From: a virus | Reading direction: 5' to 3' (one strand) | Length of the DNA stretch: 64,000 bases | Virus record (IMG/VR): IMGVR_UViG_3300025141_000031 | Part shown: piece after piece, positions 1,786-62,939 of the stretch | How the letters are laid out: each line of letters begins with the position of its first letter | Position numbering within the stretch: the first letter of the stretch is position 1 | Program-made: the position numbers and the translations under genes | The notes under the pieces: generated by a model | Database searches by the model: none | What the model was told of the DNA's origin: nothing | Seen by the model: only the letters and a program-made list of their open reading frames with translations

Positions 1786-3594
1786 CTATTCCGGAAATGC
1801 TGCACCAGTTGGAAGAATATTAAAGTCAATTATAATAAATTCTGCTGTTCTGGTTGGTTGTAAGAATAACTGACCTACCATTTGGTTTCTATCTATTACA
1901 TCCGGTGTATTATTTGTTTCATCCATTACTACTTTAAATGCATACAAACCTTGTCTTTGTTGTACACTTTCTAAATATGGATTAACAATACTTAAGAATC
2001 TATTTCTAGTTTCTGATGTATTTTGTTCAAACACTAAATATCTAGTTGCTGATGCAATAAATTTCTTAGCTGCAATCATCAATCTTCTAACATTTACTCT
2101 ATCTAATGCAGATGCTTTTTTCTGTAATGTTTTTTGTCCAAATGCTACTACTCCACTATTAGGAAAAGTTGCTAATGGATTAACATTTGCATCATATAAA
2201 GAATCTCTATTACCATGAGTTAATTTTCTTTCTGGTTGTATTGCTCTATCAATTCCACCTCTATTTAAACCAGCTGGTGCAAACCATTCAGCTGCAACCT
2301 TATCATTAAATGCATATACACCACCCATTGCAATTGAAGCTGGTACCCAAACATTTTTAGAAGCATAATTATCAGACATTTGAACCCATGGCCAATACAT
2401 TGCAGCATAATTAGTATCTCTTGCAGAAGCTTCTGTAGTTGCATCTGTAATTGTTGAACCAAATCCTACTGGATCAATTATTGTAAAACAATCTCCTCTA
2501 TTTTCACACATCTCAATTGCTGATGCTGCTACAATTGAATGACCTGTAAATGCTGAAATCACACCTGGTAACATTAATAAATTAATATCATATTCGTCTT
2601 GGTTTGCTAACAAGTTAATTGCATCTTCATATGCTGTTTTACCTTCACCTGCTGTTGTCAAGTCATATCCTTGCATATTTGTTGATTCAATCTGTTCATA
2701 AAATTTCTTTGGATGTTGTACAGTTCCATCACTACCTCCACTAAATGTTCCTGAAACTGCTAATGGTAATGAACCAGATAAGCCTGCTGCTACTGTTCCT
2801 GTACCATCATCTCTAATAGCACCATTCTCATCTAAATAATTTAAAGTAGTTCTATTAACAATTACTCTAACTTCTTTAGATTTGTTCATATAAGAACCTG
2901 ATGCTTGGATATAAGGACTAGTAGTACCAGAACCTCTTAAATTAAGTTTTGCATCTCCAATTCTTTTAGATATGAAGTTTGTTGAATTTGGATCTAATGA
3001 TAAGTTGTTCCAAGTCTCAACAATATTTTTTCTTTTAATTGTATCATCACCTTTTCTTAAATATAATGAGAAAGTACCTTTTGAAGTATTAACACTTGCA
3101 ATTTCCCATCTTAAGTTATCTTTCGAACCAGATAATAATCTACAATTTGTACTTATTGAAGTAGCAGCAGTCGATCCTGAACCTGCTGTTGATGCGGCAG
3201 GTAATCCACTATTTAATAGTGCTCCATCAGATAAAGTATACATTGTAAAACAAGCATTACCTAAATCTGCTGCTCCTACTTTAGTATCAGCTCCGCTAAA
3301 TGAACCAGCTAAAACTCTAACAACCGTTAAGGTGTCATGATGTCTTAAATATTCTTCTGCTGCTAATGACGTTAAGTATGAATAGTAATCTAAGTTCTCT
3401 GCGGAACCACTTTCGAACACATCTCCGAATAATTGTCTATATTCAGCAAATGATGTTACCATAGTAGGAACCAGACCAGGTCCTTTAACCGTTGGTCCAA
3501 TTATTGCTGCCCCTATATTTTGTACTCCTGCAGGAAGAAATGATAAGTCTCTTTCTCTAGTAAATACACCGGGTGATACGATTTTTTCAGCCAT
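1786..3594 (-). CDS. gp18: Contractile tail sheath protein (T4 gp18-like)
   Basis: SPGVFTRERD N-terminus; WFAPAGLNRG, DRVNVRRL, FEQN, LQPTRTAEFI motifs. Confidence 0.95.
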   Translation of the reverse strand: MAEKIVSPGVFTRERDLSFLPAGVQNIGAAIIGPTVKGPGLVPTMVTSFAEYRQLFGDVFESGSAENLDYYSYLTSLAAEEYLRHHDTLTVVRVLAGSFSGADTKVGAADLGNACFTMYTLSDGALLNSGLPAASTAGSGSTAATSISTNCRLLSGSKDNLRWEIASVNTSKGTFSLYLRKGDDTIKRKNIVETWNNLSLDPNSTNFISKRIGDAKLNLRGSGTTSPYIQASGSYMNKSKEVRVIVNRTTLNYLDENGAIRDDGTGTVAAGLSGSLPLAVSGTFSGGSDGTVQHPKKFYEQIESTNMQGYDLTTAGEGKTAYEDAINLLANQDEYDINLLMLPGVISAFTGHSIVAASAIEMCENRGDCFTIIDPVGFGSTITDATTEASARDTNYAAMYWPWVQMSDNYASKNVWVPASIAMGGVYAFNDKVAAEWFAPAGLNRGGIDRAIQPERKLTHGNRDSLYDANVNPLATFPNSGVVAFGQKTLQKKASALDRVNVRRLMIAAKKFIASATRYLVFEQNTSETRNRFLSIVNPYLESVQQRQGLYAFKVVMDETNNTPDVIDRNQMVGQLFLQPTRTAEFIIIDFNILPTGAAFPE

Positions 3595-3659: not shown

Positions 3660-3935
3660 TTAGTTTGATGGTGAAAAAGTCCCGGAATCTAAATCCAATG
3701 TTCCTCTGCCGTATTTTTCGTTGAATTCTTTAACCAATTCAAGCTCTGTTTTTTGAATATTTGCATATTCCGTATTAAATGTTTTATCTAGTTGATTTAA
3801 TTTTTCCGTCTTTTGATCATGTAAAATTTGTTCTAATTTTAACTCTCCAAAGTTGGCAACTAACTTAGACATTCTTTCTCGTAACTCTTGAACTTTATTT
3901 AGTTCTTCTTCTGTAAACTTTTTTGTTTCTGACAT
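3660..3935 (-). CDS. Small coiled-coil hypothetical protein
   Basis: Helical heptads ending KYGRGTLDLDSGTF; own ATATTTAT motif and SD AAAGGAG. Confidence 0.7.
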   Translation of the reverse strand: MSETKKFTEEELNKVQELRERMSKLVANFGELKLEQILHDQKTEKLNQLDKTFNTEYANIQKTELELVKEFNEKYGRGTLDLDSGTFSPSN

Positions 3936-3996: not shown

Positions 3997-4257
3997 CTAA
4001 ACTATCCATCCTAAGGAAACTGCTGCTTTAAGTTTAAATACTACAACTATACCTGGCCAAGGTGCTACTGCTAGGCCTCCTCCTGGAGGATGAAATTTTG
4101 TATTAACTCGTCCTGATAATATATACTGTTGTATCGCTGCTGTCATAACAGCTGCCATATCACCTTCTACTTCTGCGTTAGCTGGTCCTGGTTTTCCTGC
4201 TTGTCTTCTAAAGGCCGCGTATATTCCTAGATTTAATGCTGGTGTATTTAATGACAT
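3997..4257 (-). CDS. Stand-alone copy of an ~85-aa domain shared with the next two genes (putative spike-tip/adaptor)
   Basis: M.LN...L...I..AF..Q..K.GP....V....A.....AI..Y..SG pattern and a PW motif are shared with 4300..5517 and 5529..6629. Confidence 0.65.
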   Translation of the reverse strand: MSLNTPALNLGIYAAFRRQAGKPGPANAEVEGDMAAVMTAAIQQYILSGRVNTKFHPPGGGLAVAPWPGIVVVFKLKAAVSLGWIV

Positions 4258-4299
4258 ATTTGTTCCTTTTTAATTTTATGTTTGTTTTTCATTTTCTAT

Positions 4300-5517
4300 T
4301 TATGCGCCAGCTAAGGTTATTTTTCCATCAGATCCGGCTATGAACTGTTTAGAGTCTCTATTAGTATGCTTAATTGCTCTTTTTGTAGCAGATGAAGTCA
4401 TACCTTTCCCCCAACCTGCATTGGCTCTTGCTGTCACCAAATTAGCAGTGGCTTGATCAGGAAATTGTGGATTTGAGCCTTTATATTCAGGATAAGGGTG
4501 ACTTCTGGATTTCCACCTATTTTGAAGAAATGCTACAGCTGCTGGAGCTGCTACTGCTGGATCATTTAATAAATCAGGATCAGATAATATATCAACTCCT
4601 ATTATTTTCGCATACTTTTCATAAGAATCTCGGAAAGTTATTTGATTAAACCCACGTCCACGGTAGTCGTATCCATCAGATGTACCTTTCCGATTTCCAT
4701 ATTTACCAGCATATACAAGGTTAGCTAATTTTTTATCATCTCCAGAATATTCTTCAGCTAATGCGTTATAATTAAACTTGCCTTGTCCTTTTGGTACAGT
4801 GTTTCCTGTTTTGGAAAATCTACCCCAAACTTCTGCTAATCTACCTTTGGAATAAAACATTTTTTCACTCTTCGGACATAGACTAGACTCTTTTGAGATC
4901 ACTGCGAGTATTGCTATCCTTGCATATGTATTCGTAATACCAAATTTTTCCATTGCATTTTCAAGATGAACTATATTATCTGGAACAACACAAGGTCCTG
5001 TTTTATTCAAATATTTAGATTTTGAAACTTTATTTAAATCTGATTTAGTTACATCATCTGAAGTATCTCCGGAAGTTGTTCCTGTTGTTGTATGTACAGG
5101 CCCTGTTGTACTACTTTGTCCTGGTCCACTCTTATTATGTCTAGTACTACCACTACCTCCGCCTCCGCCTCCGCCACTTGATGGAGGTGGTGGATTTGTA
5201 CCTACTGGTGGAGTAATAGTTATAGCTCCTGATGATACTGGTGATGTAGAACCATCTGTTTCGAAAGATGCAACTCCAATTCCTATAGGGATATAAAATG
5301 TTGCTCTAATTCCTGGCCATGGAAAAGCTGCCATACCTGAAGCTATTCCGCCCCATCCTAAAATAATCCATGCACCCTCTAAATATTCTCGTATTGCATT
5401 TGAAATATCTGATGCCAGTTCAGCTGAAACTCCTCCTTTATATGGACCTGGTTTTGCAGCCTGTTTCAAAAATGCTGTATGTATACGAGCTCGTAATAGT
5501 ATTTTATTTAATGCCAT
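4300..5517 (-). CDS. Adaptor domain + Pro/Gly linker + GH19 lysozyme/chitinase domain
   Basis: ILAVISKES catalytic Glu region; LANLVYAGKYGN...DGYDYRGRGFNQITFRDSY...DPDLL is a GH19 endolysin-type signature. Confidence 0.85.
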   Translation of the reverse strand: MALNKILLRARIHTAFLKQAAKPGPYKGGVSAELASDISNAIREYLEGAWIILGWGGIASGMAAFPWPGIRATFYIPIGIGVASFETDGSTSPVSSGAITITPPVGTNPPPPSSGGGGGGGSGSTRHNKSGPGQSSTTGPVHTTTGTTSGDTSDDVTKSDLNKVSKSKYLNKTGPCVVPDNIVHLENAMEKFGITNTYARIAILAVISKESSLCPKSEKMFYSKGRLAEVWGRFSKTGNTVPKGQGKFNYNALAEEYSGDDKKLANLVYAGKYGNRKGTSDGYDYRGRGFNQITFRDSYEKYAKIIGVDILSDPDLLNDPAVAAPAAVAFLQNRWKSRSHPYPEYKGSNPQFPDQATANLVTARANAGWGKGMTSSATKRAIKHTNRDSKQFIAGSDGKITLAGA

Positions 5518-5528
5518 GATTATTTAAT

Positions 5529-6629
5529 TTACTTTACAGGTTTTGACATAGTTAATTGTTTATCTGCAGGAAACCATTTATTTACTAATTTCATTCTTCT
5601 TTCTTTATGACCTGAACGTTCATTTTGTCCAAATTTGTGAACATAAGCCGTTAGTATTTTTTCAGGGTCCCATTTTAATCTTCTTGCTTGTTTTTTGAAT
5701 CCACCATTTCCATAACTATTAGAAACTCCAACTGCTATTGCTGCATGTCTATTTGTACTCCATCCACCTTCTGAGAATGCTGCCTTTACTGCACTTATTC
5801 TACTACCTTTACCTGCCCGTATTTGTTTTGGATTATTTTTTGGATCGTTTAGCCATTTTTTCATTCCGTTCCACCACCACTTATGAGAAGCTGATCCTGT
5901 ACCATTATCATTTTTTCCTGATGGTGTTGTATTTTTATCATTTAATTTTTCCATGTATTTTGCAGATTTTCCAAATACCTTTTGTGTATCCATATACTTA
6001 TATAAAGTATTTAATCCTCCTTGTGCAAAGTGGAATATTCCTACAGTACCACCATCTAACTTAGTCATATCTGTATAGTCTTTACCTGAACCTCCTACAA
6101 AAGACTTTCCTCCTTCATGTGCTACTACTCCATATATTGCATCTTCCCAAAATTTATCCCAGTCATCTGATGTACCAACAACCTCTGGATCAGGAACAAC
6201 ATAATCTTTATCTATAAAACTTTTTTCTTCTTTATTTCTTTCTGTTTTATTTAATTTTTTATTTTTTCTAGTAGTTCTACTACCACCGCCGCCGCCACCG
6301 CCGCCGCCGCCGCCTCCGCCGCCACCTCCGCCACCGCCACTGGAACTTGGAGGAGGAGTTGGTCCTTCAGGAAATGGTACTGCTGGTGTTGCTCCTGTAA
6401 AAGGAAATGATGGTGGTGGAGGTGCTGTCGCTCCCCATGGAAGTATTACTCCTTTATCTTTATACCATAACATTGCAATTGGACCTGATCGTACATATGT
6501 ATCTATTGCATTTGAGAGGTCTCTTGCGATTTCTCCACAAACTTCAGATTTACCAGGACCTGATTTTACTTCTTGTCTTTTAAATGCTATATATATCATT
6601 GCCTGTAATGCTGCTGAATTTAATGGCAT
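5529..6629 (-). CDS. Adaptor domain + poly-Gly linker + lysozyme-like glycosidase domain
   Basis: VVAHEGG...Y....LDGGTVGIFHF..GGL pattern of the lysozyme superfamily (GH46/VgrG3-C-like). Confidence 0.6.
   Translation of the reverse strand: MPLNSAALQAMIYIAFKRQEVKSGPGKSEVCGEIARDLSNAIDTYVRSGPIAMLWYKDKGVILPWGATAPPPPSFPFTGATPAVPFPEGPTPPPSSSGGGGGGGGGGGGGGGGGGGSRTTRKNKKLNKTERNKEEKSFIDKDYVVPDPEVVGTSDDWDKFWEDAIYGVVAHEGGKSFVGGSGKDYTDMTKLDGGTVGIFHFAQGGLNTLYKYMDTQKVFGKSAKYMEKLNDKNTTPSGKNDNGTGSASHKWWWNGMKKWLNDPKNNPKQIRAGKGSRISAVKAAFSEGGWSTNRHAAIAVGVSNSYGNGGFKKQARRLKWDPEKILTAYVHKFGQNERSGHKERRMKLVNKWFPADKQLTMSKPVK
6282..6338 (-). repeat. GGN trinucleotide run encoding about 19 Gly
   Basis: Mostly GGC codons; a GC-rich island in an AT-rich genome. 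Confidence 0.95.
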
Positions 6630-6632
6630 AAC

Positions 6633-7517
6633 CTAACTCCTATTTTCTATTTCCTTTTCTAAATCTGAAATCAATTGTCTTTCTGATGTAATTGGATTAT
6701 AACCTCCTGGTGGTGGTGTAAAGGTTGCAGGAAATTCATCTGTTGAATGTTCTGAACCAAATTTAATTTGTTTAATTGCATATCTTTTCTGAGCAGAGGA
6801 AACACGTAATTCATCTTCCATTAATAATGTTGCTTTAGTCCTTACTGGTAACGTAGCTTTTATTATTCTATCTTCTCCTGAGTTGTTCATTGTTTCAAAT
6901 GAATAATCGTCTATGTAGGTTGCAAATTTCCAACTTGTGCCCCAAGCAAATCCTCCGGTTGGCATTATCTGTTCTATAATACCATTTAATTGTTCTGTAT
7001 ATGATGTCCATATTAATAATTCATATGTTACTTCAACAAATTCAGGAACGGATGTAATATAAAATTCTTTGGTTGGTTTAGCATTTGTTAATAATCCAAA
7101 TCTATCATATGAATTTGCTTGAGTAAATTTATTTTGTAATATCATTGCATTACCAGAAGGATTTTTATTAACATCTAATTTTTTTAATATATCTCTTTCT
7201 GCAATTGAATTTCTTCGTATACTAATCATTGGTGACATTAACTTTCCTTTGGCATCTCTTAAATAACCATGCTTCTGAACTTGACTCCATTTTTCACCAT
7301 TTGCATACATTACTGGAACGTCTATTACATTATCATCTTCTATTACAGTAGGTTTAATAATATCTCTAATATAAGATATTATTGCATAATCAACATCATA
7401 AATAGTACACGATGGAGTTTTTATAGAGTCAGTATCTCTCCTTACCTCATCAGCGCGATTAAAGCTAGTATCAGGTGAAAATGAACTATACGTTTTATTT
7501 AATTTTAATTTACCCAT
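6633..7517 (-). CDS. Tail terminator / sheath stabiliser (T4 gp15-like)
   Basis: VPVMYANGEKW, PMISIRR, P..V.VTYEL.IWT...EQ...IIEQI; follows the neck genes. Confidence 0.7.
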   Translation of the reverse strand: MGKLKLNKTYSSFSPDTSFNRADEVRRDTDSIKTPSCTIYDVDYAIISYIRDIIKPTVIEDDNVIDVPVMYANGEKWSQVQKHGYLRDAKGKLMSPMISIRRNSIAERDILKKLDVNKNPSGNAMILQNKFTQANSYDRFGLLTNAKPTKEFYITSVPEFVEVTYELLIWTSYTEQLNGIIEQIMPTGGFAWGTSWKFATYIDDYSFETMNNSGEDRIIKATLPVRTKATLLMEDELRVSSAQKRYAIKQIKFGSEHSTDEFPATFTPPPGGYNPITSERQLISDLEKEIENRS

Positions 7518-18000: not shown

Positions 18001-18603
18001 TTAAAACTCCTTAATTATATCGGTTATTAATTTATTAACATTTCCATACTTATCTGCCTTAGGATTTTTTCCTTCATTAACTGGCGATAAAAATGCTCCA
18101 TGTGTTGATGGATTAGAAACAAAGTCAAATGCAATTAATTCAAAATCAGGTTGTACTTCTAATGTATTATCTCCTTCGCCCATTACTTCTTTTACTGATC
18201 CCATTCCTCTTGAGCTAATACCTAATCTAATTCCTGATTTGAAAAGTTCTTTTAATATATTACCTGCTGGTGTTCCTAAAACTTCTACAGTACCACATAA
18301 GTCATCACCCTTCCAACTCATACCTAAAACATTATGAGATACATTATTTAAATTCACTACTGATGAATCTGGATGGTCTAATTCTCCTAATGCTCTTTTT
18401 TCTGCAATAAATGAACCTTCATATTTCTTAGCTTCTCTCATTAGAGTTTCTCTAGGATATACTCGTCCATTTTGGTTTTTTGATTCGGCTCTTTGAAGAA
18501 CTCCTGATACAATTAATTTTCCACCATTCTTTGAAAGACTTTCAGTTATTTGTTGAGGAGTTATCTCAAATGTTTGATAATTAACTAATAATTGTTTTTC
18601 CAT
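18001..18603 (-). CDS. gp21: Prohead maturation protease (T4 gp21-like)
   Basis: NQNGRVYP, ALGELDHP, VSH, GISSRGMGS, DFVSNPSTHGA. Confidence 0.95.
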   Translation of the reverse strand: MEKQLLVNYQTFEITPQQITESLSKNGGKLIVSGVLQRAESKNQNGRVYPRETLMREAKKYEGSFIAEKRALGELDHPDSSVVNLNNVSHNVLGMSWKGDDLCGTVEVLGTPAGNILKELFKSGIRLGISSRGMGSVKEVMGEGDNTLEVQPDFELIAFDFVSNPSTHGAFLSPVNEGKNPKADKYGNVNKLITDIIKEF

Positions 18604-22302: not shown

Positions 22303-23886
22303 TTATAAAAGCCAGGTTAAATCGTCGTTGTCTTTGTCTCCGGAGTTCCAATCCCAACCTGTACCTTTTAAATCTGTTTTGGTTGTATATAATCCTGCGT
22401 CTGTTTTTCCTATACCTCCTAATGATTTTCTATTTAAATCCATTCCTTGTTGTTGTAATCTTAACGCAGTATCTCGCATCCATAATCCTGTTGCAAATGA
22501 TATTACTAAATCATCGTTATATCCTCTAGAAGCTTCTGCTCTATGTCCTAACCAAATAAATGTAAATAATTCATCTATTAATCGTTTACTATGTACTATT
22601 GGAGTTTTATCTCTAAAATATGTTTCTAGTTTAGATATTACTAATGGACGTGTTCTAGATGTCATTGAAAATCCAGGAACTTTTTGTGATTTTTTCTTTA
22701 AATCATAATTTTTCTTTAAGTGTATCTCTTCATCCAAGTATCCGTCTTGTTTATAAGAATAGTATATATTTGGATATCCTTTATCTAACGCTACTTGTAT
22801 TGATGCCCATCCTATATTAGCATTTTCAACTACTAGTAACGCATTATTATATTCTGTAGCAACTGCTATTAACATATTACCATATTCGGTAGTTCCTATC
22901 TTACCTTTATATTCTGCAACTTGTTTACATTGTTCTGTATCAAATACGTGAAATGCGGAATAATCTGTTGAATCTCCTCTTGCGACATCAGCTACTACCA
23001 TATAATTCTTTGAGTAATTTGGATATTCCCAAATCCAGTAATTACCATCAAATCCTCTTTTTTCTATTGGTTCTTTTACATATGTTTGTTCATACCATTG
23101 TAATATCTCACCATCTACTACTGTATGACCTGAACTAATAAAATCGCAATCACATTCTTGCGCTGCCATTTTTTCACCTAATAATTCTGTTTGTTTAGCT
23201 CTCCATTTATCATCTCTATCTGGATGTACTGTCCAATGAAGTTTTATATTATTAAATTCTCCGCCAGCGGTTGCTTCTACCCATTGTTTATGGAACCAAT
23301 TTCCAACACCATTAGGAGTTGATAATGCAATACAATCACCACCTGTTGCTAGTGTTTGTTGAGCGGCTGTCCAAATTTCATCAATTTTATCAATAAATGC
23401 TGCTTCATCAAATATCAATAATGATAAGGCCTCAGATCTACCCGCATCACCTTTAGATGATATAGCTTTAACCTGTGAACCATTTGTTAATCTTAATGAT
23501 AATTTGTTATCTTCTAATACTGAACCACTTAACCATTTAGGTAAATTTTCATGCATTACTCTAACTTTAGTTACAAGATTTTTTGCAACATCTTGTTTAG
23601 TTGCAATAACCAAAGCATTAAAATCAGAATGGAATAACATTTTCCATAAAGTATACCCAGCTGTTAATGTTGAAATACCTAACTGTCTAGATTTAAGAAT
23701 AATGTTATATCTATTTTGTGATATCTGTGTTAATGAATCTTCTTGGAATGGGTATAAATTAAAGTATATCTTTCCTTGAGTTGGATGTTGAATTATACAG
23801 TATTTACGCATAAAGTGTATAGGATCTTGTACACACTTCTTATATTCATCGTGTATGATTTCTTTTAATGTTTTCTTAACTGACAT
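22303..23886 (-). CDS. terL: Terminase large subunit (T4 gp17-like)
   Basis: LKSRQLGIST Walker A, IFDEAAF Walker B, STPNG, ADVARG..DYS, DDLV nuclease motifs. Confidence 0.97.
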   Translation of the reverse strand: MSVKKTLKEIIHDEYKKCVQDPIHFMRKYCIIQHPTQGKIYFNLYPFQEDSLTQISQNRYNIILKSRQLGISTLTAGYTLWKMLFHSDFNALVIATKQDVAKNLVTKVRVMHENLPKWLSGSVLEDNKLSLRLTNGSQVKAISSKGDAGRSEALSLLIFDEAAFIDKIDEIWTAAQQTLATGGDCIALSTPNGVGNWFHKQWVEATAGGEFNNIKLHWTVHPDRDDKWRAKQTELLGEKMAAQECDCDFISSGHTVVDGEILQWYEQTYVKEPIEKRGFDGNYWIWEYPNYSKNYMVVADVARGDSTDYSAFHVFDTEQCKQVAEYKGKIGTTEYGNMLIAVATEYNNALLVVENANIGWASIQVALDKGYPNIYYSYKQDGYLDEEIHLKKNYDLKKKSQKVPGFSMTSRTRPLVISKLETYFRDKTPIVHSKRLIDELFTFIWLGHRAEASRGYNDDLVISFATGLWMRDTALRLQQQGMDLNRKSLGGIGKTDAGLYTTKTDLKGTGWDWNSGDKDNDDLTWLL

Positions 23887-23936: not shown

Positions 23937-24353
23937 TTACTTTTTGTTTTTGGTATCTGGGGCTTTGACACGTTTTTCCATCGTTCTACCACCAAAATAA
24001 GCACCTATTACTGTAATAAGAACTAATTGTAATAAATCGGTCCATTTTTCTTCTACTACAAATTTAATTGTTCCGGCATCAATGAATATCATTAATACTG
24101 TAGATATAACTAAGAATGCTAATGTTAATGGTCTAATGTTCTTAGATAACCATGAGTCAGAGTTCATATCTGCTTGCCATCTAGAAGTTATTTCTTTTTC
24201 CATTTGGGTCTCATAGTTAGCTATTAATTCTTTAACCTTCTGTTCAGCAGCTAGCTTTTCTTCTTTAGAAGTATGTAAATCATCTATAACTCCACCTACT
24301 CCTTTAACCAATTCTGTAGCTCCGCCACTAAATATGTTTGTTAATATACTCAT
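23937..24353 (-). CDS. Holin (GTA/3TM holin-like)
   Basis: TSKEEK...RWQADM.SDSWLSKNIRPL, two hydrophobic helices, YFGGRT.EK. Confidence 0.75.
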   Translation of the reverse strand: MSILTNIFSGGATELVKGVGGVIDDLHTSKEEKLAAEQKVKELIANYETQMEKEITSRWQADMNSDSWLSKNIRPLTLAFLVISTVLMIFIDAGTIKFVVEEKWTDLLQLVLITVIGAYFGGRTMEKRVKAPDTKNKK

Positions 24354-57622: not shown

Positions 57623-59950
57623 TTAGGATGATTTCCAAGGACCTAATTTTCCTGCTAAATATGCTCTGTCTAATCCATGCCAAGTAGAATGTCCTTGTTT
57701 TATTTTTGAAAATGGTCCTCTTTTAGCATATTTTAAATTATATTCAAAATGCCATTCTTCTGATGAAACGGCTCTTACAAATCCGTATTTGCAAGAATTA
57801 GCTATCAACCATGCATATACGCCAGTTTTAGATGATCTAGATGTAGTTATTCGTTTCCCATTTACTATTTTATGCCTGGTATAACTAAGATCGAGTGCAG
57901 TTCCATTTTGATGTCTACTTTGTCCTGGTATTGCAACCCATGGGTCAAATTTATCAAACCTTGCTGTCCATAATGCATTTGTTCTATCTTTCATATCTAA
58001 TTTCCTCCATGCTTTAGGAATTGCACAATTCTTACGTATAGGTACTTGTCCTCCAGCTATCTTTTTTCCTGTCTCGTGATGGTTGAGTTGCCAAAGACCG
58101 CGATATGCACTATTAATTTTTAAACTAATGTCATCTTTCCTTGCAGCTGCTATTAGTTGTAATGTAGGTCCACAGAGATATTCTCTGACAGCTTGGCCTT
58201 GTATTAATCTAATTCTATCATGACCCATTACTTTCCCATAATTTTTCTGACCCTTTTCAGTTTGAAAATATGGAAATGTACCTGGTATTAATTCTAATTC
58301 TTCAACATTATCTGGTAGTGGGTCTAGTGGTGGAGCTTCTACGATTGGTCCTGAAGGAGAACACTCGTTTGATGGAAATATATTTCCATTGGAATCTGAT
58401 CGCGCACCTACCGGCCCGTCAGGGTTTCCAGCTGGTCCGTCCATTGGATAATTCAATGCATCAAATACTGTACTAGCTAATTGTAACTGTATTTTTTGTC
58501 CTGAACAAACATATATTGAAGCTTTATCTCCATTAATATCTTCTACAATAAAATCATTGTCTGAATTGTTCATTGCTGGTGATTGTCCTGCACGTAATAT
58601 ATTAATTGGTCCACCTGGACCTGCCATTCCTATTTCCCAACTAGGTTGTTTAAGATATTGAGTTTTATCTTTTGGATCTAAAGCTGAACCGAATCTTAAA
58701 CTTTGGCCAAACCTGCCTTGTAGTAGTGTATCACCTTCATATGGTTGTAAATTACATAATTGATCAAACTCAGCAAAGTCTTGGCCTAATGCAAAATTAG
58801 GTGTACCTAATCCTCCTTGTTTTCCAGTAGAATTACCACTTGTATTACTGTTGTTTCCTGTACCATCATTATCTGGTTTATCTCCGTATTCATTGTACTG
58901 TGATGGGTTTTTCTTCCATTTTTCGTATTCTTCTCCAAATCCTAATTCATGAGGTTTTAATGCATATAATCCTCCTCCTGTTTTCATAAAATCTTTATCT
59001 TCTACTTCACCTTCTGTACCCCCTGTATTATAATACTTAGACCAAGAATATTTTCCATCTTTTAAAGCAGTGAGTTCAAGGTATCCTGTATTTGTGTCAT
59101 GATCAAACATCTTATCAGATTCCATAAACTCTCCTGTGAATCCACCTTTTGTCAGTTCCTCCTTTTTTTCATCAATCTTATCTAGAATAGGTTGTATATC
59201 TTCAGATTCATTAATAGCGGTTCTTGCACCTCCTGCTCGTCTTAGAGTTTCTCCTGCATCCATTAGGACATACAGGTCCAGAATTTGTTGTTCTTTTTCC
59301 ATAAACCAGTGTATCCACTGATTTGGTAATACTGATGGATCTTTATCTTTTAAAAATTCTTCAGTTCTAGAAGCATCATTTGGGTCATAGGTTTCAGTTC
59401 CTGTAGTTCCTGGATTACCTGAAGTTGCGTCTCTATATTCCTGGAACATTTGTTTGGTCGTACCATCTGACTTTATTTTATTATTTCCTAAAATGTCGCT
59501 TACATTTTGTCCTGGTGCTGCATTTAAATGAACACTTCCTTGTAATCCTAACGGGTTTAGATAATACCAGCTTAGATCATATGCCATTCCTGTATGTTTT
59601 TCTCCTGTATTGGTATTAGGAGCTGCTGGTCCCATTTCTGGACCCGTTCCTTGGAATACAACTACATGTTCTCCTTGTAATGGAGGTCGACTAAAATTAT
59701 GATCTGCAGGATATGCTACAACAGTTTTTCCTCCACCTCCTGATACAGACGCTTGATTTGCACCAAGCATTATTTCTATTTCACCTCGGTATTGACTTTT
59801 TGCAGCATGTGCTTCACCAGTTGCTTTCGCTTTATCAGTAGGAGGCATGCCAGACTCTTTACGATTTTTTTCTGAACGTGATTTTTGGTTGAATGCGTTA
59901 GCAATACTTATTACTTCACCAAATCCCCATGTAACTCCTTGTGCGCTCAT
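57623..59950 (-). CDS. Central spike N-terminal module (gp5-like) fused to a peptidase M15 (VanY-like) domain
   Basis: RPPLQGEHV, LQPYEGDTLLQGRFGQSLRFGS; SAYR...PGQSRHQNGTALD...EEWHFEY zinc motifs. Confidence 0.75.
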   Translation of the reverse strand: MSAQGVTWGFGEVISIANAFNQKSRSEKNRKESGMPPTDKAKATGEAHAAKSQYRGEIEIMLGANQASVSGGGGKTVVAYPADHNFSRPPLQGEHVVVFQGTGPEMGPAAPNTNTGEKHTGMAYDLSWYYLNPLGLQGSVHLNAAPGQNVSDILGNNKIKSDGTTKQMFQEYRDATSGNPGTTGTETYDPNDASRTEEFLKDKDPSVLPNQWIHWFMEKEQQILDLYVLMDAGETLRRAGGARTAINESEDIQPILDKIDEKKEELTKGGFTGEFMESDKMFDHDTNTGYLELTALKDGKYSWSKYYNTGGTEGEVEDKDFMKTGGGLYALKPHELGFGEEYEKWKKNPSQYNEYGDKPDNDGTGNNSNTSGNSTGKQGGLGTPNFALGQDFAEFDQLCNLQPYEGDTLLQGRFGQSLRFGSALDPKDKTQYLKQPSWEIGMAGPGGPINILRAGQSPAMNNSDNDFIVEDINGDKASIYVCSGQKIQLQLASTVFDALNYPMDGPAGNPDGPVGARSDSNGNIFPSNECSPSGPIVEAPPLDPLPDNVEELELIPGTFPYFQTEKGQKNYGKVMGHDRIRLIQGQAVREYLCGPTLQLIAAARKDDISLKINSAYRGLWQLNHHETGKKIAGGQVPIRKNCAIPKAWRKLDMKDRTNALWTARFDKFDPWVAIPGQSRHQNGTALDLSYTRHKIVNGKRITTSRSSKTGVYAWLIANSCKYGFVRAVSSEEWHFEYNLKYAKRGPFSKIKQGHSTWHGLDRAYLAGKLGPWKSS

Positions 59951-62303: not shown

Positions 62304-62939
62304 TTATATTATTTGATCTACTACACCTAAATCTAATGCTTGTTCAGAAGATAAATACATATCTGTTCTCATTTGATCTTTCCACCAAATAGCATCCTTT
62401 TTTGTTTTTTCTGCTAATAAATTATATACATCTTGTTCTACTTGTTTAACAAAATCTACTGTTGCTGTAACATCTCCTAATTTACCTGATATCATTGATG
62501 AGGCTTGATGAAACATTATAGTTGAATTTTTACTTACCATTCTAGTTCCAGTACCACATGTTAATATTACGGATGCGGCTGAAAAGGCTTTGCCTCTACA
62601 TATTGTATTTACTCTTACATCTAATGATTTTATATAATCTATGATACCCATCATTTCATGAATGTCGCCACCTGGGCTATTTATCATTAAATTAATAGGT
62701 GCTGTTGGTTCTCCTGTATATTCTTTTGATTGTCTATATTTTAATATACGTCTAATTCTAATCATTAAATCAAATAGTGTATGACCTTCTATTTCATCAT
62801 TGAGATAAATAACAGAATCATCTAATTCGATTTGATTAGCTAATATCTCATTTAGTTCTGTATATGGAGAATTTTCTGGCAATGTTACTTGTTCGGTGGC
62901 TGGTTGTGGCCTTGGTCTTTCATCATAAATATTACTCAT
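62304..62939 (-). CDS. clpP: ClpP-like protease
   Basis: INSPGG, GKAFSAAS (Ser), IMFHQ (His), RTDMYLS (Asp), G.VDQI. Confidence 0.9.
   Translation of the reverse strand: MSNIYDERPRPQPATEQVTLPENSPYTELNEILANQIELDDSVIYLNDEIEGHTLFDLMIRIRRILKYRQSKEYTGEPTAPINLMINSPGGDIHEMMGIIDYIKSLDVRVNTICRGKAFSAASVILTCGTGTRMVSKNSTIMFHQASSMISGKLGDVTATVDFVKQVEQDVYNLLAEKTKKDAIWWKDQMRTDMYLSSEQALDLGVVDQII

What the first reader, a model, noticed from the sequence alone, without database searches (positions are those of the whole stretch)
3997..6629. Three tandem paralogous adaptor domains loading different cell-wall hydrolases (effector-cargo-like module)
Seen: three consecutive genes begin with the same ~85-aa domain (M.LN...L...I..AF..Q..K.GP...V....A.....AI..Y). 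One copy is bare, one carries a GH19 domain and one a different lysozyme-like domain. Both cargos hang on the same PPP-SS-polyG-S..TR.NK linker. The trio sits between the tail terminator and sheath genes. Known: T6SS PAAR/VgrG proteins carry swappable C-terminal effectors. Inference: these are spike-tip or tail adaptors, possibly a heterotrimer, that load modular peptidoglycan hydrolases onto the virion.
Basis: partly seen in the sequence, partly recalled or inferred. Interest (0 to 1): 0.8.

Follow-up and report, generated by a model that had tools for sequence, protein, structure and literature searches.

The report
Shared docking domain on phage wall-degrading enzymes
An uncultured marine T4-like phage has three neighbouring tail-operon genes that start with the same small domain, two of which carry different cell-wall-cutting enzymes on flexible tethers; related phages swap these enzymes, so this is probably a plug-in system for mounting enzymes on the tail, though nobody has shown the proteins are in the virion.

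Summary
Three consecutive minus-strand genes (366, 405 and 86 aa) share an N-terminal domain (pairwise BLASTP E about 1e-13 to 1e-14). One copy is bare. One carries a GH19 muramidase-type domain with both catalytic Glu. One carries a lysozyme-like domain with no Pfam or PHROG family (AF2 model; Z 11.6 to GH46 chitosanase). Both cargos hang on the same PPP-SS-polyGly-S-TR-NK tether.

New findings:
- In eight distinct related marine loci (window included; ten recovered, two pairs being the same contig) the bare copy is always present and always last, between the gp15-like gene and a conserved 91-aa gene. The number of cargo-bearing paralogs is 0, 1 or 2.
- Three cargo types occur on two N-domain types, in five of six combinations, which indicates shuffling at the tether.
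- The domain belongs to an uncharacterised viral family (phrog_5576), mostly free 61-100 aa proteins.
- In four Winoviridae-like (pro)phage loci the family gene lies directly after the central spike gene.
- Single-chain 2x and 3x repeat forms exist, and a 3x form has a confident compact Atlas model.

Best reading (0.5): a small oligomerising tail or spike-associated subunit whose paralogs tether envelope hydrolases to the virion. Virion presence is not shown. A role as soluble multimeric endolysins remains open, because an orphan holin and no other endolysin were seen in the window.

The parts
5529..6629 (-). Paralog 1 (366 aa, P0001). It has a short N-domain (aa 1-70, 6420-6629), a Pro-rich/poly-Gly tether (aa 71-137, 6219-6419) and a lysozyme-like domain with no sequence family (aa 138-366, 5532-6218) whose invariant Glu lies in AHE172GG.
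4300..5517 (-). Paralog 2 (405 aa, P0002). It has a full N-domain (aa 1-85, 5263-5517), a Ser/Thr/Pro/Gly tether (aa 86-180, 4978-5262) and a GH19 domain (4303-4977) with Glu210 and Glu218. It has no Shine-Dalgarno sequence and starts 11 nt after the stop of paralog 1.
3997..4257 (-). Paralog 3 (86 aa, P0003), the bare N-domain. This is the copy that is conserved in every relative of the lineage.
6282..6338 (-). Run of 19 Gly codons (GGC/GGT/GGA) inside the tether of paralog 1. The matching run of 7 Gly codons in paralog 2 lies at 5155-5175.
   Evidence: read directly from the sequence
6633..7517 (-). gp15-like tail sheath stabiliser/terminator (294 aa). Its stop lies 3 nt before the start of paralog 1.
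   Evidence: borderline scores; 71-79% identical orthologs flank the locus in all relatives
3660..3935 (-). Conserved 91-aa coiled-coil-like protein between the trio and the sheath gene. It is also present directly upstream of the sheath gene in phages immuto and Mel-JY01, which lack the N-domain gene.
1786..3594 (-). Tail sheath (602 aa).

Best explanation
The roughly 85-aa domain (two helices followed by Gly-rich strands) is a small, self-associating accessory subunit of the contractile tail, probably associated with the central spike or hub. The bare 86-aa protein is the basic building block. The two larger paralogs keep the same domain so that they co-assemble with it, and each then holds a soluble envelope-degrading enzyme on a 70-95-residue flexible Pro/Ser/Gly tether. 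The enzymes (a GH19 muramidase-type domain and a new lysozyme-like domain) would therefore travel on the virion and help local wall digestion at infection, alongside the VanY/M15-like peptidase already built into a baseplate protein.

Shown: paralogy, domain architecture, intact catalytic residues, the shared tether, co-location with tail genes, cargo swapping among relatives, and the spike-adjacent position of distant homologs.

Inferred: oligomerisation, co-assembly, virion location and action at entry.
For: 1. The bare copy is retained in all eight distinct loci of the lineage, always last before the 91-aa gene, including the four with no cargo paralog. The domain therefore has a function of its own.
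2. Cargo-bearing copies number 0, 1 or 2. The same alpha/beta cargo (57% identity over 173 aa) sits on the short N-type in L011/L014 and on the full N-type in L015. GH19 sits on the full type in the window and on the short type in P0050.
3. The genes are packed into the late tail operon with gaps of 3, 11, 42 and 61 nt and no terminator between them.
4. A profile search of 1.84 billion proteins found 39 relatives, mostly free 71-100 aa proteins. Twelve of 28 hit phrog_5576.
5. In L002, L003, L004 and L020 the gene order is DUF6046, GPD-like hub, spike-like protein, then the family gene, with abutting or overlapping stops and starts.
6. The spike assignment rests on lotta gp43 matching PDB spike proteins 4ru3, 8eon and 9b45 (E 0.004-0.011).
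7. The loci with the family gene have a short 176-195 aa spike. Lotta and FPSV, with 265-277 aa spikes, lack the family gene.
8. 2x and 3x tandem-repeat single-chain forms exist. The 3x form P0028 has an Atlas model with pTM 0.80, and its structural neighbours are all viral.
9. There is no TM segment: maximum KD19 is 0.56-1.69, against 1.87-2.41 for the TM anchors of free homologs of the cargo.
Against: No proteomic or structural evidence places any family member in a virion.

The N-domain model has moderate confidence only (pLDDT 68) and matches nothing informative.

The nearest isolates, immuto and Mel-JY01, lack the family, so it is not a core tail part.

In this phage the genes lie about 50 kb from the baseplate spike genes.

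The baseplate already carries a VanY-like peptidase.

A probable holin (23937-24353, PF11351 at 22.8 bits, below the 24.8 cut-off) has no adjacent endolysin, and no other lysin was seen among the ORFs I scanned. These two enzymes could therefore be the endolysins.

Free homologs of the 366-aa protein's cargo are TM-anchored, as exported endolysins are.
Confidence: 0.5

Rival explanations
1. The two large proteins are the phage's holin-dependent soluble endolysins. The N-domain would be an oligomerisation or cell-wall-binding module, and the bare copy would supply extra binding subunits. Precedents are PlyC (PlyCA plus eight PlyCB) and endolysins that co-assemble with free binding domains (Lys170, CD27L).
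For: GH19 and the second domain belong to classes used as endolysins (phrog_181; TM-anchored and M23-fused homologs). A probable holin lies next to terL without an endolysin, and no other lysin was found among the window ORFs I tested. Neither protein has a signal peptide or TM segment, as expected of canonical cytoplasmic endolysins.
Against: Four relatives keep only the bare domain at this locus, and Winoviridae-like (pro)phages keep it in the baseplate operon beside the spike, not in a lysis cassette. A binding subunit without an enzyme is hard to explain. One cargo type looks like a serine alpha/beta hydrolase rather than a muramidase; this is read by eye from an AFSGG motif, with no family hit. 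Only 64 kb of a roughly 140-kb genome could be inspected, so another endolysin may exist.
Confidence: 0.25
2. The N-domain is a packaging tag that loads the enzymes into the tail-tube lumen or the head for ejection, like eCIS/PVC payload leaders or the T4 capsid-targeting sequence. The bare copy would be a plug or a competitor.
For: The genes lie between the tail terminator and sheath genes.
Against: The trio does not start with that leader (MIKLKQLLTE); this is read directly. The domain is a folded 60-85 aa unit that also exists as free, 2x and 3x proteins, unlike short disordered leaders. The conserved bare copy has no payload.
Confidence: 0.1
3. The locus is an accessory (moron-like) insertion unrelated to the virion. 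For example, the N-domain could be a latch that keeps the hydrolases inactive, or a protein acting on the host envelope during infection.
For: The family is missing from immuto and Mel-JY01, which otherwise share the gp15-like gene, the 91-aa gene and the sheath gene in this order.
Against: The locus is retained in all eight distinct loci of the lineage, it is tightly coupled to tail genes, and distant homologs lie in a baseplate context.
Confidence: 0.1

Closest known systems
T6SS 'evolved' VgrG and PAAR proteins with C-terminal effector domains (for example V. cholerae VgrG3 with its peptidoglycan-hydrolase domain, PDB 4noo/4nso)
   Same: A structural docking module of a contractile injection machine is fused through a linker to interchangeable wall-degrading cargos. 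The cargo of the 366-aa protein shares the chitosanase/lysozyme-like fold class with the VgrG3 C-domain (Z 7.5, 167 residues aligned).
   Different: The docking domain has no sequence or predicted-fold similarity to PAAR or VgrG. It is a helical hairpin plus strands, not a beta cone or gp5/gp27 fold. Attachment to a spike is not shown. A free cargo-less paralog is always encoded alongside.
Virion-associated peptidoglycan hydrolases of phages (T4 gp5 lysozyme domain, phiKZ gp181, Tal proteins of lactococcal phages)
   Same: Muralytic domains are encoded inside the tail gene cluster and are presumed to act at entry. The domain families are shared with endolysins.
   Different: In those phages the enzyme is a domain of a large, recognisable structural protein (spike, tape measure, Tal). 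Here it hangs on an 85-aa domain of unknown place, in two paralogs plus a bare copy, and it varies in number between close relatives.
Two-form tail subunits that co-assemble with and without an extra C-terminal domain (SPP1 gp17.1 and gp17.1*, lambda gpG/gpGT); from my own knowledge
   Same: The idea is the same: a bare subunit and a longer version with the same assembly domain enter one structure, so that an extra domain is displayed at sub-stoichiometric levels.
   Different: Those pairs come from one gene by frameshifting and add non-enzymatic domains. Here separate diverged paralogs (34-39% identity) carry enzymes.
Multimeric endolysin PlyC (PlyCA plus eight 72-aa PlyCB subunits) and endolysins with free binding-domain subunits (Lys170, CD27L/CTP1L); from my own knowledge
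   Same: A small separately made subunit occurs together with catalytic chains, which suggests hetero-oligomers.
   Different: Those are lysis-cassette enzymes of Gram-positive hosts, and their small subunit binds cell wall. No similarity to them was tested or seen. Here the small subunit persists without any enzyme and sits in tail or baseplate operons.
GH19 phage endolysins (PDB 8p8e KTN6 gp46, 4ok7 SPN1S, 9ms6 PWe1)
   Same: The C-domain of the 405-aa protein aligns over about 150 residues (E 2e-16 to 7e-12), and both catalytic Glu positions are kept.
   Different: Those are free 210-220 aa enzymes. This one has about 180 extra N-terminal residues (N-domain plus tether).

Membership tests
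Glycoside hydrolase family 19 (cargo of the 405-aa protein) | Match to PF00182 above the gathering score | tested here: met
   26.0 bits against a 25.5 cut-off, over a partial region 276-331. Supported by phrog_181 at E 2.5e-27 and PDB GH19 endolysins at E 2e-16.
Glycoside hydrolase family 19 (cargo of the 405-aa protein) | Two catalytic glutamates, E-x7/8-E, at the start of the domain | tested here: met
   Glu210 (SKESS) and Glu218 (PKSEK) align with the Glu of 'VES' and 'VEN' in 8p8e.
Lysozyme-like superfamily (GH46/GH24/GH23-type fold; cargo of the 366-aa protein) | Two-lobed helical lysozyme fold | tested here: met
   AF2 model with pLDDT 73 and pTM 0.75. VIA-align gives Z 11.6 (189 residues, rmsd 3.9) to GH46 chitosanase 7c6d, then 4olt at 11.1, 1qgi at 9.7, GH80 at 7.9, VgrG3 C-domain at 7.5, SagA at 7.2 and GH24 at 7.1. 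Nearly all of the top 22 rows are lysozyme-like enzymes. Foldseek alone was weak, with best E 0.35.
Lysozyme-like superfamily (cargo of the 366-aa protein) | Conserved catalytic acid on the first helix | tested here: inconclusive
   A Glu (AHE172GG) is invariant in 16 homologs, but I did not superpose it on a known catalytic Glu. The loop after it (model residues 35-57) has low confidence.
GH46 chitosanase family proper | Sequence-level membership | tested here: inconclusive
   No Pfam, PHROG, NCBIfam or PDB sequence hit to the domain. Identity in the structural alignment is 12-15%.
PAAR spike-tip proteins | PAAR-motif beta cone (Pfam PAAR_motif family) | tested here: not met
   No PAAR hit for the three proteins or for 28 family members. 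The predicted structure is two helices (5-20, 28-47) plus two strands.
SAR / signal-anchor endolysins | N-terminal transmembrane or SAR helix | tested here: not met
   Maximum 19-residue Kyte-Doolittle mean is 0.56 (366-aa) and 1.21 (405-aa), neither at the N-terminus. Free homologs P0004 and P0010 have N-terminal anchors at 1.87 and 2.41.
T4-type capsid-targeting-sequence cargo | Short N-terminal leader shared with other head-loaded proteins of the same phage | tested here: not met
   The trio starts MPLN/MALN/MSLN, not with the MIKLKQLLTE leader reported for this genome. That other locus lies outside my window and I did not re-check it.
Virion-associated peptidoglycan hydrolase | Protein physically present in the mature virion | not testable with these tools
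   No cultured phage in the 50,697-record collection carries the family, so no proteome exists to consult.
phrog_5576 (uncharacterised phage protein family) | HMM match | tested here: inconclusive
   12 of 28 small family members match (best E 1.5e-6). The window's three proteins do not match directly. They are linked to those members through the profile search.

The most novel reading that the evidence does not exclude
The 85-aa domain defines a previously unrecognised class of contractile-tail tip or hub subunit. It would be unrelated to PAAR and would assemble as three (or six) copies, encoded as one gene, as 2x/3x repeat chains, or as paralog sets. In a marine T4-like lineage it would have become a plug-and-play socket. 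Paralogs would co-assemble with the bare subunit and display exchangeable envelope-degrading enzymes on long tethers, with new combinations arising by recombination in the poly-Gly/Pro linker.
Probability: 0.3. Interest if true: 0.75.

Novelty: new variant of a known kind. Interest (0 to 1): 0.6.

Why it matters
If the domain really docks enzymes onto the tail, it shows that phages use the same approach as T6SS spikes (one socket, many effectors) but with an unrelated, much smaller module. It would give a natural handle for attaching chosen enzymes to phage tails. It would also assign a role to an uncharacterised viral protein family (phrog_5576 and its 2x/3x repeat relatives).

It also points to a lysozyme-like family common in marine metagenomes that no sequence library recognises.

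If instead these are multimeric endolysins, they would be a rare example of that design in phages of Gram-negative marine bacteria.

Tried and rejected
- **PAAR-like identity:** rejected. There is no motif and the predicted fold is helical.
- **Membrane anchor, SAR or holin role for the N-domain:** rejected on hydropathy.
- **Capsid-targeting leader:** the sequence differs.
- **Fold identification of the N-domain:** Foldseek against PDB gave best E 3.3. VIA-align wide gave only generic helical hairpins (Z up to 6.4). BFVD returned only uncharacterised 61-93 aa phage proteins, best E 0.022. A profile search against PDB sequences found nothing.
- **Homology between the alpha/beta cargo (P0020/P0021) and the N-terminal half of baseplate protein P0056:** not supported by BLASTP (E 0.5-0.9).
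- **Tree of N-domains to prove slot-wise orthology:** unresolved, with 58 columns and no well-supported split between slots. Only best-identity pairs suggest orthology (slot 1 to slot 1 at 59%, slot 2 to slot 2 at 50%).
- **Family members in cultured phages:** none found. Immuto and Mel-JY01 are negative.
- **Genomic context of the 2x/3x repeat forms:** none found. Cluster look-up gave no names.
- **Tool limits:** The rest of the genome could therefore not be searched for another endolysin.
- **Literature:** three searches found nothing on this family.
Full report
**Anatomy**

The minus strand carries three consecutive ORFs:
- 6629..5529, 366 aa, P0001
- 5517..4300, 405 aa, P0002
- 4257..3997, 86 aa, P0003

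They follow a gp15-like sheath-stabiliser gene (6633-7517). Its family scores are borderline: PF16724 at 24.9 bits against a 25 cut-off, and phrog_227 at E 6e-4. Downstream lie a 91-aa gene, the sheath gene (1786-3594), the tube gene and a T4-type hub gene. The gaps are 3, 11, 42 and 61 nt, and no terminator-like site lies between the genes. The window belongs to an uncultured T4-like myovirus with about 32% G+C. Its sheath is 52% identical to that of Flavobacterium phage immuto.

**The repeat is real**

- The three N-termini align with 18 invariant positions: M1 L3 N4 L8 I12 A15 F16 Q19 K22 G24 P25 V30 A35 A41 I42 Y45 P64 W65.
- Pairwise BLASTP E-values are 1e-13 to 1e-14, and scores lie 17-19 sd above shuffles.
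- A six-frame profile scan finds no further copy in the window.
- P0002 and P0003 share about 85 residues. P0001 keeps only the first 60-70 and then runs into the tether.
- The tethers are homologous: PPPSSS-G19-SRTTRKNK in P0001 and PPPPSS-G7-SGSTRHNK in P0002.

**Cargos**

*P0002.* It carries a GH19 domain:
- PF00182 matches just above threshold, phrog_181 'endolysin' matches at E 2.5e-27, and PDB GH19 endolysins match at E 2e-16 to 7e-12.
- Both catalytic Glu are aligned.

*P0001.* Its C-domain matches nothing in Pfam, PHROGs, NCBIfam or PDB by sequence.
- It has 15 homologs in marine metagenomes. Most are 210-240 aa proteins, and the sequences read have an N-terminal TM anchor. Two are 507-510 aa fusions behind a Peptidase_M23 domain.
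- An AF2 model built on these homologs (pLDDT 73, pTM 0.75) is lysozyme-like. VIA-align gives Z 11.6 to GH46 chitosanase, 7.9 to GH80, 7.5 to the VgrG3 peptidoglycan-hydrolase domain and 7.1 to GH24. Lytic transglycosylases and phage lysozymes follow.
- A Glu in AHEGG is invariant.
- 'A different lysozyme-like domain' is therefore right, and it is a family that sequence libraries do not recognise.

**Comparative genomics of the locus**

Ten related loci were recovered from IMG/VR and marine metagenomes. Their flanking genes are 70-85% identical to the window's. L018 is the same contig as L013, and L019 the same as L012, so with the window there are eight distinct loci. All of them read gp15-like, then [x], then a bare 85-95 aa copy. 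In the seven that extend far enough, the 91-aa gene and the sheath gene follow.

| Locus | Content of x |
|---|---|
| L012/L019, L013/L018, L016, L017 | empty |
| L011, L014 | one fusion, 297/299 aa: short N-domain plus an unassigned alpha/beta-looking domain |
| L015 | two fusions: 359 aa with the P0001-type lysozyme-like domain (78% identity), and 336 aa with a full N-domain plus the alpha/beta domain |
| Window | P0001 and P0002 |

- The alpha/beta cargo of L011 (short N) and of L015 (full N) is 57% identical over 173 residues.
- A metagenomic protein, P0050, joins the short N-type and a P0001-like linker to a GH19 domain.
- Five of the six possible combinations of N-type and cargo are therefore seen. 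The bare copy is the constant element and the enzymes are exchangeable accessories.
- Immuto and Microcystis phage Mel-JY01 have the 91-aa gene directly before the sheath gene but no member of the family. The module is a lineage-specific addition to the tail operon.

**The wider family**

A profile of the three N-domains, searched against 1.84 billion representative proteins, found 39 proteins at E <= 1e-3.
- Most are free proteins of 71-100 aa. Twelve of 28 match phrog_5576, a family of unknown function.
- Six are tandem repeats of the domain in one chain. P0027, P0048 and P0055 have 2 copies; P0025, P0028 and P0042 have 3.
- One hit, P0047, is a repetitive fibre and is probably spurious.
- The ESM Atlas holds a confident model of the 3x protein P0028 (pTM 0.80). 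Its structural neighbours are viral clusters of 201-208 aa (TM 0.9) and of 453 aa. Three domain copies can therefore pack into one compact body, but two-copy chains exist too.
- My AF2 model of the single domain (pLDDT 68) shows helices at 5-20 and 28-47 and two strands. It has no informative structural match.

**Context of distant members**

Four loci (L002, L003, L004 and L020) come from (pro)phages of about 37 kb and one 167-kb contig. They are related to the Winoviridae myoviruses of Flavobacteriia. In each, the 61-76 aa family gene directly follows the gene after the GPD-like hub.
- That preceding gene (176-195 aa) is 36-40% identical in its first roughly 110 residues to lotta gp43 and FPSV-S1 p265. 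Lotta gp43 matches solved central spikes 4ru3, 8eon and 9b45 at E 0.004-0.011.
- Phages with the long spike (265-277 aa, with beta-helix-like repeats) have no family gene. The loci with the family gene have a short spike with a helical C-terminus.
- This is the only evidence that links the family to the spike. It is association by position, not proof.

**Arguments against the virion reading**

- The phage already has a baseplate protein (57623-59950) with a VanY-like peptidase at its C-terminus (PDB 6a6a/5zhf, E 0.0013).
- A probable three-TM-type holin (23937-24353; PF11351 at 22.8 bits against a 24.8 cut-off) lies next to terL with no endolysin beside it.
- No other lysin appeared among the ORFs I could scan.
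- P0001 and P0002 have no export signal. They could therefore simply be holin-released endolysins, with the N-domain serving oligomerisation or wall binding.
- Against that reading, the bare domain persists where no enzyme partner is encoded nearby, and it sits in baseplate operons elsewhere.
- I could not inspect the other roughly 75 kb of the genome.

**Verdict**

- Modular carriage of interchangeable hydrolases is well supported.
- A tail or spike location and a trimeric assembly are plausible but unproven.
- The T6SS comparison is an analogy of design, not a family relationship.

I put 0.5 on a virion-mounted enzyme-docking subunit, 0.25 on multimeric soluble endolysins, 0.1 on a lumen or head loading tag and 0.1 on an unrelated accessory function.

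Three literature searches found no description of this family.

Noticed in passing
window 57623-59950 (-): A 775-aa baseplate protein has a gp5-like N-terminal stretch (read by eye) and a C-terminal VanY/M15-type D-Ala-D-Ala carboxypeptidase region (residues 667-737; PDB 6a6a/5zhf/5hnm, E 0.0013). It is probably the built-in tail lysin of this lineage; immuto annotates a 'carboxypeptidase' in its own tail-gene cluster.
   Followed up: partly
window 23937-24353 (-): A 138-aa protein with two C-terminal hydrophobic helices matches PF11351 (GTA_holin_3TM) weakly (E 1.4e-4, 22.8 bits against a 24.8 cut-off). It lies directly upstream of a terminase-large-subunit-like gene (22303-23886, assigned by eye) and has no endolysin next to it.
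   Followed up: partly
window 5532-6218 (-) and proteins P0004-P0018: The C-domain of the 366-aa protein defines a lysozyme-like family that Pfam, PHROGs and NCBIfam do not recognise. It is widespread in Tara and other marine metagenomes, as TM-anchored proteins of about 230 aa and as fusions of about 510 aa behind a Peptidase_M23 domain.
   Followed up: partly
window 6282-6338 and 5155-5175 (-): The poly-Gly tracts are encoded by runs of GGC/GGT/GGA in a genome of about 32% G+C. Tract length differs between the paralogs (19 and 7 Gly) and in relatives (about 8-12). They may be slippage-prone or a recombination site for cargo exchange.
   Followed up: no
window 18001-18603 (-) and 62304-62939 (-): There are two different head-protease-like genes in one window: a T4 gp21-type Peptidase_S77 (E 8.7e-25) and a second 'head maturation protease' (phrog_94, E 4.6e-38).
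   Followed up: no
window 3660-3935 (-); L001 8584-8859; L021 6656-6970: A 91-105 aa coiled-coil-like protein ending in a conserved Gly/Thr/Asp-rich motif (YGRGTLDLDSGTFSP in the window) lies directly upstream of the sheath gene in this phage, in Flavobacterium phage immuto and in Microcystis phage Mel-JY01. It has no family assignment.
   Followed up: partly
L003 7468-7998, L002 7469-7999, L020 3411-3998, compared with L008 8013-8846: Winoviridae-like central spikes come in a long form (265-277 aa with beta-helix-like repeats) and a short form (176-195 aa with a helical C-terminus). Only the short-form loci encode the small family protein right after the spike gene.
   Followed up: partly
proteins P0020, P0021; L011 2537-3427; L015 3140-4147: The third cargo type is about 170 aa with an AFSGG motif, a later LIDP and a C-terminal His. 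By eye this looks like a serine alpha/beta-hydrolase triad. There is no Pfam, NCBIfam or PDB sequence hit.
   Followed up: partly
L001 8122-8538 (Flavobacterium phage immuto gp043): The 138-aa protein annotated 'lysozyme' at the equivalent site in immuto is highly acidic and does not look like a lysozyme by eye. The annotation may be wrong.
   Followed up: no
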